From: a bacterium
GTDB taxonomy: Bacteria > Patescibacteriota > Patescibacteriia > UBA1558 > UBA10009
Reading direction: 5' to 3'
Assembly: GCA_018672055.1 (NCBI GenBank)
Contig: JABHGM010000001.1
Span: forward strand, 824,093-888,092
Length of the DNA stretch: 64,000 nt
The notes under the pieces were generated by a model. The model did not search any database, was not told where the DNA came from, and worked only from the letters and a program-made list of their open reading frames with translations. Below are positions 10,121 to 10,888 of this stretch, one piece after another. The translations under genes were made by a program, and so were the position numbers. Position 1 is the first letter of the stretch. Each line of letters starts with the position of its first letter.

Positions 10121-10888
10121 TTATTTTTCACCCCTTCTTTGTCTACGTAAATGTTTTTGATATTTTTCATTACTTTTAATCTCATTATCAATTAAGTCTC
10201 TTAATAAATCAGCTTTTGATATTTTTGTATTATGAGTTTTCCATCTTAAATATCTTTCAGCTCTAGGAGTATACCTTAATGTAAATTTAATAGTTGGCAC
10301 TTCTTTCCTTGTTTCAAACTTTTCGTTTAAGATTAATTTGTAATCTATGACCCCAGAATATTTTTTATCTATACTATCAAAAATATTAAAATCTTTGGAT
10401 TTTTTCATTATAGCTTTAGATGGTTTTAAAATTCTGTCACCGAATAGTATCAAAACAGCAGGTACTTTCATGGTTGATAATTTTACAGAATTTATTAAAT
10501 TTGACTTTAGTTCAAAACCACTATGAAAATTCCTTTCAACTTTAACATTATCATCTTTGCTATTTTCAATATTTAAACTCGTAATTACTACTGGTTTGCT
10601 AATTGTCTTTAAACTGTTAGTAAGAGATAAACCAATTTTTTTAATTAAATCTGTATCTACTAGTAAAACGAACCCATTTACCTGATCATAATTTTTATCA
10701 ATGACTTTATTAATTTCTCTCAACATATCTGTACCTCCATATTTTGAGGAAATAAAAACTGGTAAGATCTCTGCAATGAGAGAAATTTCTTTATTTTCTA
10801 GTACCCAGTTATTAATATCTTTTTTTTTATTAACAGTACTACCTCCTGCAAACAATAAGGCAATCTTTTTTTTATTTATTTTTTTCAT
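10121..10888 (-). CDS. asparaginase-like N-terminal domain fused to a C-terminal ribbon-helix-helix-like segment; hypothetical
   Basis: N-terminal LLFAGGSTV and VLLVDTDLI resemble the TGGTIAG and hGTDTM motifs of the asparaginase/GatD N-domain. C-terminal IKFTLRYTPRAERYLRWKTHNTKISKADLLRDLIDNEI looks like an RHH (beta-alpha-alpha) fold. Confidence 0.35.
   Translation of the reverse strand: MKKINKKKIALLFAGGSTVNKKKDINNWVLENKEISLIAEILPVFISSKYGGTDMLREINKVIDKNYDQVNGFVLLVDTDLIKKIGLSLTNSLKTISKPVVITSLNIENSKDDNVKVERNFHSGFELKSNLINSVKLSTMKVPAVLILFGDRILKPSKAIMKKSKDFNIFDSIDKKYSGVIDYKLILNEKFETRKEVPTIKFTLRYTPRAERYLRWKTHNTKISKADLLRDLIDNEIKSNEKYQKHLRRQRRGEK

What the first reader, a model, noticed from the sequence alone, without database searches (positions are those of the whole stretch)
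10121..10888. Asparaginase-like N-domain fused to a ribbon-helix-helix tail, next to the integrase
The N-terminal ~160 aa carry asparaginase/GatD-N-domain-like motifs (LLFAGGSTV and VLLVDTDLI, compare TGGTIAG and hGTDTM) but lack the C-terminal asparaginase domain. The last ~60 aa look like an RHH DNA-binding unit (beta strand IKFTLRYTP, helices RAERYLRW / ISKADLLRDLIDNEI). I do not know this architecture. Its position beside the integrase suggests a mobile-element regulatory or accessory protein, for example an excisionase/RDF-like factor or a repressor with a repurposed enzymatic fold.
Basis: inference. Interest (0 to 1): 0.5.

Follow-up and report, generated by a model that had tools for sequence, protein, structure and literature searches.

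The report
Deletion-made asparaginase–RHH fusion gene
This 255-aa gene is a one-off chimera: a ~0.7 kb deletion joined the front domain of a catalytically dead asparaginase-like gene to the DNA-binding ribbon-helix-helix end of the regulator gene next to it, and it belongs to the host's conserved locus, not to the neighbouring integrase element.

Summary

The mobile-element reading does not hold. In 64 of 72 Patescibacteria loci a full-length asparaginase-like gene (295-380 aa) lies directly upstream of a ~200-aa DNPH1-like+RHH gene. None of the 72 has a serine integrase within 6 kb, and none has the two parts fused. The window lacks ~724 nt relative to the closest relative: the asparaginase C-domain and the DNPH1-like domain. 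The junction is at ~10305-10316. The integrase and an RHS-toxin block are a ~12 kb insertion between GAPDH and this locus.

The fusion is not an artefact: the identical protein is on 69 contigs of up to 963 kb. The tail keeps 21 of 22 conserved positions. The asparaginase half evolves much faster but stays open. A family-typical GCCGTC repeat lies between the promoter and the ATG. Most likely it is a still-working RHH autoregulator with a vestigial N-domain. A decaying remnant is the main rival.

The parts
10121..10888 (-). Chimeric ORF of 255 aa (stop codon included).
   Evidence: ORF list. The identical protein P0050 is on 69 contigs of up to 963 kb.
10310..10888 (-). Asparaginase-derived part, aa 1-193. 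It holds the complete N-domain (AGGS in place of TGGT, 10-aa lid-loop deletion, VDTDL) and ends in the inter-domain linker.
   Evidence: Pfam PF00710 at 40.4 bits. 48% identity to aa 6-205 of the full-length 312-aa neighbour gene in L002. Motif alignment.
10305..10316 (.). Deletion junction. The two DNA alignments to the intact L002 locus overlap here. About 724 nt of L002 (801..1524) have no counterpart in the window.
   Evidence: blastn: window 10843-10305 = L002 253-800, and window 10316-9230 = L002 1513-2592. Three-way view.
10121..10309 (-). Part derived from the downstream DNPH1-like/RHH gene, aa 194-255. It comprises linker, RHH domain and a basic C-terminal helix.
   Evidence: 74% identity to P0002/P0003 aa 129-194. 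21 of 22 positions that are >=90% conserved are retained.
10172..10297 (-). RHH core, aa ~198-239: beta strand PTIKFTLRY (IKFTLR = 10274-10291), helix 1 aa 208-218, helix 2 aa 225-239.
10922..10950 (-). Promoter-like site: -35 TTGACT, 17-nt spacer, TG-extended -10 TATATT. It lies in the 71-nt spacer after the integrase stop codon.
   Evidence: It is the best-scoring site of the scan, 10 of 12 matches plus TG. This is a consensus match only.
10892..10915 (-). Candidate operator: GCCATC (10915-10910) and GCGCCGTC (10899-10892), 18 nt apart start to start, between the -10 box and the ATG.
   Evidence: It is the only GCCGTC/GACGGC hexamer in the 64 kb window. The 8-mer is expected 0.02 times. The same hexamer pair, at 17-18 nt spacing and the same position, occurs upstream of the asparaginase-like gene in 23 of 63 loci.
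9297..10061 (-). Alpha/beta hydrolase gene. It is the syntenic anchor: the same downstream neighbour as in the intact loci.
   Evidence: 76% identity to the L002 hydrolase. Gene order in L002, L011 and L012.

Best explanation
Origin (shown). In Patescibacteria a full-length asparaginase-like gene is followed directly, often overlapping by 4 nt, by a ~200-aa gene. That gene encodes a DNPH1/Rcl/nucleoside-deoxyribosyltransferase-like domain plus a C-terminal RHH domain. In this lineage a deletion of ~0.7 kb, with both breakpoints in inter-domain linkers, removed the asparaginase C-domain and the DNPH1-like domain. It joined the remainders in frame. The integrase is only a neighbour: it belongs to ~12 kb of foreign DNA inserted between GAPDH and this locus.

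Function (inferred). The product is still used as an RHH DNA-binding protein. It dimerises through the RHH domain and binds the GCCGTC repeats that lie between its own -10 box and start codon, so it represses its own transcription. The family-typical nucleotide-sensor domain is gone, so regulation is probably ligand-independent. The asparaginase N-domain cannot be catalytic. It has no nucleophile Thr, no lid loop and no C-domain to complete the site. It is kept mainly as the translated leader or scaffold that supplies promoter, start codon and reading frame for the RHH domain.
For: Origin:
- The N-part aligns to aa 6-205 of the adjacent 312-aa gene in L002, and the tail to aa 129-194 of the next gene.
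- The DNA alignments abut at 10305-10316.
- The same downstream hydrolase follows.
- 64 of 72 loci have the two genes separate and adjacent, and none has them fused.
- L011 shows rpsB-tsf-pyrH-PSP1-GAPDH-asp-RHH-hydrolase contiguous, the same order as the window apart from the insertion.
- The exact protein is on 69 contigs of up to 963 kb.

Function:
- The tail keeps 21 of 22 conserved positions.
- Relative-rate tests show the tail and the hydrolase evolving normally. The Asp half is accelerated: identity to 64 outgroups is 26.7% against 35.4% for L002, lower in 64 of 64. Excess dN is ~0.24 against ~0.05 for the tail and ~0 for the hydrolase.
- The 193 AT-rich codons are still open. The simulated probability of that is ~2% after 60 neutral substitutions.
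- There is a strong promoter-like site.
- A GCCGTC pair at family-typical position and spacing lies in front of the ORF. The hexamer is 20-fold enriched upstream of the operon in relatives (P ~ 1e-26). It also occurs next to GAF-RHH genes with the same tail.
- RHH fold.
- The same tail is a modular output domain behind DNPH1-like, GAF and 2xGAF domains.
- Loss of catalytic residues. Class 1 asparaginase sites need the C-domain of the partner protomer (PMC9500103).
Against: - No expression or binding data exist.
- The fusion is known from one lineage only, with no sequence variants, so selection after the deletion cannot be measured directly.
- dS is saturated, so branch estimates of omega are rough.
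- The second half-site is degenerate (GCCATC), and the closest relative (L002) has no such motif upstream.
- That the RHH tail binds the motif is only an association.
- Neighbouring genes of the ancestral locus (AMP-binding enzyme, aminotransferase) are missing from the window. The N-half also evolves fast. Both fit a locus in decay.
- The protein's own tail gives no Pfam RHH hit.
- A model of the full-length fusion was not made.
Confidence: 0.6

Rival explanations
1. Decaying remnant. The deletion destroyed both genes, and the chimeric ORF is a non-functional leftover that happens still to be open.
For: The fusion is unique to one lineage. The Asp half evolves about 6-fold faster at nonsynonymous sites than in L002, and has lost its lid loop. 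The AMP-binding and aminotransferase genes of the locus are gone. One operator half-site is degenerate. Both catalytic or sensor domains that would give the pair a function are deleted.
Against: The tail keeps 21 of 22 conserved residues and shows almost no rate acceleration. A 255-codon ORF in a 26% GC genome is unlikely to stay open under neutral drift at the excess divergence seen. Both breakpoints lie in linkers and are in frame. The promoter and the proximal operator site are intact.
Confidence: 0.3
2. Mobile-element accessory protein (recombination directionality factor, excisionase or repressor) of the adjacent serine integrase.
For: It lies 71 nt downstream of the integrase on the same strand. 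RHH proteins are common element regulators (general knowledge).
Against: Both halves and the downstream hydrolase are in conserved host synteny in genomes without an integrase. None of 72 related loci has a serine recombinase within 6 kb. There are no PHROG or PADLOC hits. The ORF's start and upstream operator motif match those of the ancestral operon.
Confidence: 0.04
3. Assembly or concatenation artefact that joins two contigs at 10310.
For: One NCBI MAG contig ends exactly at 10310 (P0001, 193 aa partial). Its partner contig starts 6 codons earlier (P0051). A second MAG breaks 10 codons upstream (P0052).
Against: The exact 255-aa protein is called on 69 contigs of up to 963 kb from NCBI, JGI, ENA and Logan. 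A 525 kb contig reads through the junction. The breaks are explained by the highly conserved tail DNA, which is shared with co-occurring relatives and diverges exactly at the junction (30+ nt identical to L002).
Confidence: 0.02
4. A minimal but active asparaginase or glutaminase with a DNA-binding tail.
For: The Pfam N-domain hit is above cutoff, and the T-D of the GTDT motif is present.
Against: The nucleophile Thr is Ala, 10 lid-loop residues are deleted and the C-domain is absent. NCBIfam asparaginase models score 30 bits against cutoffs of 260-376. Class 1 active sites require the partner protomer's C-domain (PMC9500103).
Confidence: 0.02

Closest known systems
Class 1 (type I, AnsA/GatD-like) bacterial L-asparaginases, Pfam PF00710 + PF17763
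   Same: The N-terminal alpha/beta domain is homologous: 40 bits to PF00710, and 48% identity to a full-length Patescibacteria family member.
   Different: It has no C-terminal domain, no nucleophile Thr and a deleted lid loop. The whole Patescibacteria subfamily already lacks both catalytic threonines (AGGT, and D[VLI][ED]S in place of GTDT), so it is best seen as a pseudo-enzyme family.
Uncharacterised Patescibacteria DNPH1/Rcl-like + RHH proteins (~200 aa; e.g. P0003, P0021, named 'hypothetical protein' in NCBI)
   Same: The last 62-66 residues are orthologous: 74% identity, the same position upstream of the hydrolase, and the same GCCGTC repeats upstream of the operon.
Ribbon-helix-helix repressors of the CopG/Arc/MetJ superfamily, e.g. 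omega repressor, ParD, MazE, and the RHH domains of PutA and NikR
   Same: It has the beta-alpha-alpha fold. It has alternating polar residues on the strand (K-F-T-L-R). Candidate operator repeats occur in direct or inverted orientation, as described for omega heptads (general knowledge). Like NikR and PutA, the RHH domain is fused to a larger non-DNA-binding domain.
   Different: The RHH domain is C-terminal rather than N-terminal. An extra C-terminal helix is present. There is no toxin partner. DNA binding is untested.
GAF + RHH and 2xGAF + RHH proteins of Saccharibacteria and Doudnabacteria (L078-L081, P0269, P0308)
   Same: They carry the same IKFTLR...SKA..LR tail as an output domain behind a sensor-type domain. 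GCGCCGTCGC motifs lie next to two of these genes.
   Different: The N-terminal domain is different, and these proteins are established families rather than a single-lineage deletion product.
Recombination directionality factors or excisionases of large serine integrases
   Same: Only the adjacency to a serine integrase gene.
   Different: There is no homology, no co-occurrence across genomes and no location inside the element.

Membership tests
Class 1 L-asparaginase (EcAI/EcAII/GatD type) | N-terminal asparaginase domain (PF00710) | tested here: met
   40.4 bits against a cutoff of 22.5, aa 31-183.
Class 1 L-asparaginase (EcAI/EcAII/GatD type) | C-terminal asparaginase domain (PF17763) that completes the active site in the intimate dimer | tested here: not met
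   It is absent from the ORF and from the whole window. The requirement is described in PMC9500103.
Class 1 L-asparaginase (EcAI/EcAII/GatD type) | Nucleophilic Thr in the TGGT motif, and a lid loop with a catalytic Tyr | tested here: not met
   The motif is AGGS, and the loop has a 10-residue deletion relative to all close relatives.
Class 1 L-asparaginase (EcAI/EcAII/GatD type) | Second Thr-Asp (GTDT) and catalytic Lys | tested here: inconclusive
   T-D is present (VDTDL).
Class 1 L-asparaginase (EcAI/EcAII/GatD type) | Score above the NCBIfam equivalog or subfamily cutoffs | tested here: not met
   30.8 bits against 376, and 29.7 against 260.5.
Ribbon-helix-helix (CopG/Arc/MetJ) superfamily | Beta-strand, helix, helix fold | tested here: met
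Ribbon-helix-helix (CopG/Arc/MetJ) superfamily | Sequence match to an RHH profile | tested here: inconclusive
   The protein's own tail gives no Pfam hit. The homologous tail of L080 passes RHH_1 at 24.6 bits against 20.5. The family profile's best PDB hit is CopG 7by2 at E = 0.17.
Ribbon-helix-helix (CopG/Arc/MetJ) superfamily | Dimerisation and operator binding through the paired strands | not testable with these tools
   There is only an association with GCCGTC repeats.
Patescibacteria DNPH1-like + RHH family | Conserved IKFTLR...WKTHNTKISKADFLR tail | tested here: met
   74% identity, with 21 of 22 conserved positions kept.
Patescibacteria DNPH1-like + RHH family | N-terminal DNPH1/NDT-like domain | tested here: not met
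   There is no match anywhere in the window. The domain was identified in relatives.
Patescibacteria DNPH1-like + RHH family | Position directly downstream of an asparaginase-like gene | tested here: met
   Here it is fused to that gene. The two are adjacent in 64 of 72 loci.
Serine-integrase RDF / excisionase / element repressor | Encoded within the integrase-bearing element and co-occurring with the integrase across genomes | tested here: not met
   None of 72 loci has a serine recombinase within 6 kb. Host synteny. No PHROG hit.

The most novel reading that the evidence does not exclude
The fusion is a working neo-regulator. A natural, single-step deletion swapped the sensor domain of an RHH one-component regulator for the N-domain of its own operon partner, a pseudo-asparaginase. 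Behind it lies an undescribed regulatory module, widespread in Patescibacteria: a pseudo-asparaginase, a pseudo-DNPH1-RHH repressor, and GCCGTC repeat operators. In that module the two dead-enzyme folds act as ligand sensors or partners.
Probability: 0.3. Interest if true: 0.5.

Novelty: new variant of a known kind. Interest (0 to 1): 0.3.

Why it matters
The fusion itself is a clean, datable example of how a new domain architecture arises in a reduced genome. One in-frame deletion between two translationally coupled genes produced it, with both breakpoints in linkers. It also shows that a 'novel architecture next to an integrase' need not be mobile-element biology.

The conserved ancestral pair uncovered here may matter more. 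A catalytically dead asparaginase-like protein and a DNPH1-like+RHH protein occur together in dozens of Patescibacteria species, with a GC-rich repeat motif upstream. That gives an uncharacterised, testable transcriptional module in a phylum where almost no regulators have been studied.

Tried and rejected
- **Split target gene:** I first suspected that the integrase element had inserted into a ~200-aa gene. I searched the window for the missing N-half and found none. Synteny then showed a local deletion instead.
- **Assembly artefact:** I suspected this because an NCBI contig ends exactly at the junction. It was rejected after the exact protein was found on 69 contigs.
- **Word-indexed search with the N-part alone:** it returned only the protein's own cluster. 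I used the L002 asparaginase and the exhaustive HMMER search instead.
- **Undeleted or variant alleles:** none turned up in the cluster look-up or the metagenome scan.
- **Libraries and literature:** PADLOC and PHROGs gave nothing for the fusion or its parent genes. Two literature searches found no description of the gene pair or the architecture.
- **Candidate look-alikes:** P0269 (255 aa) and P0308 (443 aa) turned out to be GAF-RHH proteins.
- **Extra ORFs between the two genes:** in 10 loci there are small inserted genes (by sequence motif, four-helix-bundle 'IVS'-type and GIY-YIG-like). They are not operon members.
- **Integrase-mediated deletion:** no evidence. The junction is ~650 nt from the integrase gene, and only a weak TTGAAAC microhomology is visible.

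Full report
**1. Observation**

The ORF at 10121..10888 (minus strand, ATG start, 255 aa) exists as described.

N-part. Pfam places an asparaginase N-terminal domain (PF00710) on aa 31-183, at 40.4 bits against a gathering score of 22.5. NCBIfam asparaginase models match only weakly, about 30 bits against cutoffs of 260-376. Solved type I asparaginases align over the GTDT region. No C-terminal asparaginase domain is present in the ORF or elsewhere in the window.

Tail. It gives no Pfam hit of its own, but it is a strongly conserved domain. Its RHH fold is supported by four results:
- A tail-only AlphaFold2 model has pLDDT 83. It shows an extended IKFTLRY segment and then helices at aa 208-218, 225-239 and 241-251.
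- The homologous tail of a Doudnabacteria protein (L080) passes Pfam RHH_1 over the full profile, at 24.6 bits against 20.5.
- The family profile's best PDB match is a CopG-family regulator, at a weak E of 0.17.

**2. What the ORF is**

The first homology search showed that, apart from one identical partial copy, every hit was a ~200-aa Patescibacteria protein matching only the last quarter of the query at 60-75% identity. The match runs from aa 189-254 of the query to aa 129-194 of those proteins.

Their genomic context explains the architecture. In L002, L005 and L006 a full-length asparaginase-like gene (309-312 aa) is followed within 1-2 nt by the ~200-aa gene, and in L002 then by an alpha/beta hydrolase. 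The query's N-part (aa 7-193) aligns at 48% identity to aa 6-205 of that upstream gene. The window's downstream hydrolase is 76% identical to the L002 hydrolase.

At the DNA level, window 10843-10305 aligns to L002 253-800, and window 10316-9230 aligns to L002 1513-2592. About 724 nt of the intact locus are missing, and the junction lies within 10305-10316. The lost segment encodes two things:
- the asparaginase C-domain;

Both breakpoints fall in inter-domain linkers. One is at the end of the PF00710 profile. The other is at the low-pLDDT segment 134-136 of the P0003 model.

**3. Generality and uniqueness**

A scan of one genome per species returned 72 loci that encode the tail family.
- In 64 of them an asparaginase-like gene of 295-380 aa lies directly upstream on the same strand. 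The gaps are mostly -4 to +13 nt.
- Ten loci have a small unrelated ORF inserted between the two genes.
- In no locus are the two parts in one ORF.
- No locus has a serine recombinase within 6 kb.

An exhaustive HMMER search of 1.84 billion representative proteins found 324 hits. Every hit matched either the N-part or the tail, never both. The two candidates of suspicious length are GAF-RHH and 2xGAF-RHH proteins. The Asp-N + RHH architecture is therefore confined to this lineage.

**4. Not an artefact**

One NCBI MAG contig ends exactly at 10310. Its partner contig begins six codons earlier, and another MAG breaks ten codons upstream. However, the exact 255-aa protein is recorded on 69 contigs of up to 963 kb from NCBI, JGI, ENA and Logan. 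A 525 kb contig reads through the junction with the same neighbours on both sides. The breaks are plausibly caused by the very conserved tail DNA, which is shared with co-occurring relatives and diverges exactly at the junction (this is inference).

**5. Relation to the integrase**

L011 (Ca. Komeilibacteria) has rpsB-tsf-pyrH-PSP1-GAPDH-asparaginase-RHH gene-hydrolase contiguous. The window has the same order on its minus strand. Between GAPDH (22999-24003) and the fusion ORF, however, lie the following:
- a SpvB-like gene;
- a 2160-aa RHS/TcdB/Ntox44 toxin;
- a 186-aa ORF;
- an OLD-family nuclease;
- a duplicated GAPDH 3' end (146 nt, 85% identity);
- the 660-aa large serine integrase.

The integrase is thus part of ~12 kb of inserted DNA. 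The fusion ORF belongs to the flanking host locus. Neither the fusion nor its parent genes match PHROGs or PADLOC. The excisionase, RDF or element-repressor reading is not supported.

**6. State of the two halves**

Asparaginase half. The Patescibacteria asparaginase-like family already lacks the canonical catalytic threonines. TGGT is mostly AGGT, and GTDT is mostly D[VLI][ED]S. The fusion has also lost 10 residues of the lid loop. Class 1 asparaginases complete their active site with the partner protomer's C-domain (PMC9500103). Catalysis can therefore be excluded with high confidence.

Donor family. Its DNPH1-like domain has L/M/S at the position aligned with the catalytic Glu of Rcl (the residue's role is from my knowledge of Rcl). 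This points to ligand sensing rather than catalysis.

Relative-rate tests:

| Segment | Identity to 64 outgroups, fusion vs L002 | L002 higher in | Excess dN on the window branch (outgroups L012, L011) |
|---|---|---|---|
| Asp half | 26.7% vs 35.4% | 64 of 64 | ~0.24 |
| Tail | 49.3% vs 52.1% | 53 of 64 | ~0.05 |
| Hydrolase | not run | not run | ~0 |

(Identities, dN.) The tail retains 21 of 22 positions that are at least 90% conserved in the family.

Despite its fast evolution, the Asp half is an uninterrupted 193-codon frame in a 26% GC genome. Simulated neutral substitutions leave it open with probability 0.25 after 20 changes, 0.02 after 60 and below 0.01 after 80. dS is saturated, so these numbers are approximate. 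The pattern fits continued selection on the RHH domain. Such selection would by itself keep the upstream frame open while tolerating amino-acid change there.

**7. Cis-elements**

A TG-extended sigma-70-like promoter (TTGACT-17-TATATT, 10950-10922) is the best-scoring site in the region.

A k-mer comparison then turned up a GC-rich hexamer, GCCGTC/GACGGC, often extended to GCGCCGTCGC:
- It is 20-fold denser in the 60 nt upstream of the asparaginase-like gene than elsewhere in the loci: 14.3 against 0.69 per kb.
- 31 of 63 loci have at least one copy (binomial P ~ 1e-26), and 23 have at least two.
- Spacing is 17-18 nt in 20 of the 23 consecutive pairs. Orientation is direct or inverted. Positions peak at -35 and -15 from the start codon.
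- Further pairs recur in the intergenic DNA downstream of the RHH gene.
- The extended motif also lies next to GAF-RHH genes in two Saccharibacteria loci.

In the window, the only such hexamer in 64 kb lies at 10892-10899 (GCGCCGTC, expected 0.02). That is -11 to -4 from the fusion's ATG. A degenerate partner (GCCATC) lies 18 nt upstream, and both are downstream of the -10 box. That the RHH tail binds this motif is inferred from co-occurrence only.

**8. Mechanism proposed**

Shown: the ORF arose by a deletion that fused two adjacent host genes.

Inferred (about 0.6): the product is still an RHH dimer that binds the GCCGTC repeats over its own transcription start and represses itself. It has lost the DNPH1-like sensor. 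It carries the asparaginase N-domain as a non-catalytic leader or scaffold.

Main rival (about 0.3): a decaying remnant. In its favour are the single-lineage distribution, the accelerated N-half, the degenerate half-site, the absence of the motif in the closest relative, and the absence from the window of the AMP-binding and aminotransferase genes that flank the locus in L002.

**9. Novelty and score**

The domain combination is new. It is, however, a lineage-specific variant of well-known kinds: an RHH regulator with an appended domain, and a gene fusion made by deletion. Two literature searches found no description of the gene pair or the architecture. Interest is modest (0.3). The more promising lead is the conserved pseudo-asparaginase / pseudo-DNPH1-RHH operon and its candidate operator in Patescibacteria.

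Noticed in passing
window 12955-13123 and 22915-23083: A 146-nt direct repeat (85% identity; the similarity extends to ~170 nt) consists of the last 28 codons of GAPDH plus its terminator-like hairpin. It brackets a ~10 kb block carrying a SpvB-like gene, an RHS/TcdB/Ntox44 toxin, a 186-aa ORF and an OLD nuclease. The left copy is a GAPDH 3' fragment just upstream of the integrase start. How the block and the integrase arrived, and where the att sites are, is unresolved.
   Followed up: partly
window 13039-13188 (minus) and 16255-16306: A small ORF joins an RHS-like YD-repeat fragment (MAWYYDGKVGRFNRVD, 75% DNA identity to part of the 2160-aa RHS gene) to the GAPDH C-terminal fragment. This hints at RHS-associated rearrangement at the edge of the inserted block.
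   Followed up: no
L013-L066, upstream of the asparaginase-like genes; also e.g. L016 6692-6710 and 6802-6818; L079 6245; L081 4569: GC-rich repeats GCCGTC/GACGGC (extended form GCGCCGTCGC) occur in pairs 16-19 nt apart, direct or inverted. They lie upstream of the operon and, in two pairs ~110 nt apart, downstream of the RHH gene (in L016, ahead of a small GreA-like ORF). The extended motif also lies next to GAF-RHH genes. This is a candidate operator and local regulon of this RHH family.
   Followed up: partly
P0053-P0172 (asparaginase-like family) and alignment A1 (DNPH1-like + RHH family): Both partner families look like pseudo-enzymes. The asparaginase-like proteins mostly have AGGT in place of TGGT and D[VLI][ED]S in place of GTDT. 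The DNPH1-like domain has L/M/S where Rcl has its catalytic Glu. The pair is translationally coupled in most of the 64 loci.
   Followed up: partly
L078 4562-6159, L079 5443-6177, L080 5374-6288, L081 3956-4459; P0269, P0308: The same IKFTLR...SKA..LR RHH tail is fused to GAF or 2xGAF domains in Saccharibacteria and Doudnabacteria. L078 has two such genes in tandem. The tail is therefore a modular output domain.
   Followed up: partly
window 10310 / L001 end; P0001, P0051, P0052: Two NCBI MAG assemblies break inside this gene, at or within 10 codons of the deletion junction. The likely cause is the conserved tail DNA shared with co-occurring relatives. A co-existing undeleted allele is not excluded.
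   Followed up: partly
window 8435-9214 versus L002 2611-5510: In L002 an AMP-binding enzyme and an aminotransferase lie between the hydrolase and the GAF histidine kinase. The window has a methyltransferase there, and neither of those two genes occurs anywhere in its 64 kb.
   Followed up: partly
L002 1-180 and L005 1-90: Upstream of the intact asparaginase-like gene in the closest relative there is the end of an unrelated ORF and a GC-rich hairpin (CCCTGCGGCTTGCCGCAGGG). Several contigs end within 90-180 nt of this point. This suggests a repeated or variable element at the same position where the window has its insertion.
   Followed up: no
window 10124-10324 versus L002 1505-1708: Synonymous divergence of the tail (dS ~0.53 over 67 codons) is lower than that of the Asp half (1.7) and the hydrolase (1.2), and a run of 30+ nt is identical. 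This could be chance, nucleotide-level constraint or past recombination.
   Followed up: no
L012, L032, L036, L050, L053, L055-L058, L067, between the two operon genes: In ten loci small ORFs are inserted between the asparaginase-like gene and the RHH gene. By their sequence motifs they look like four-helix-bundle '23S rRNA intervening sequence'-type, GIY-YIG-like or GxxExxY-type proteins. No family search was run on them.
   Followed up: partly
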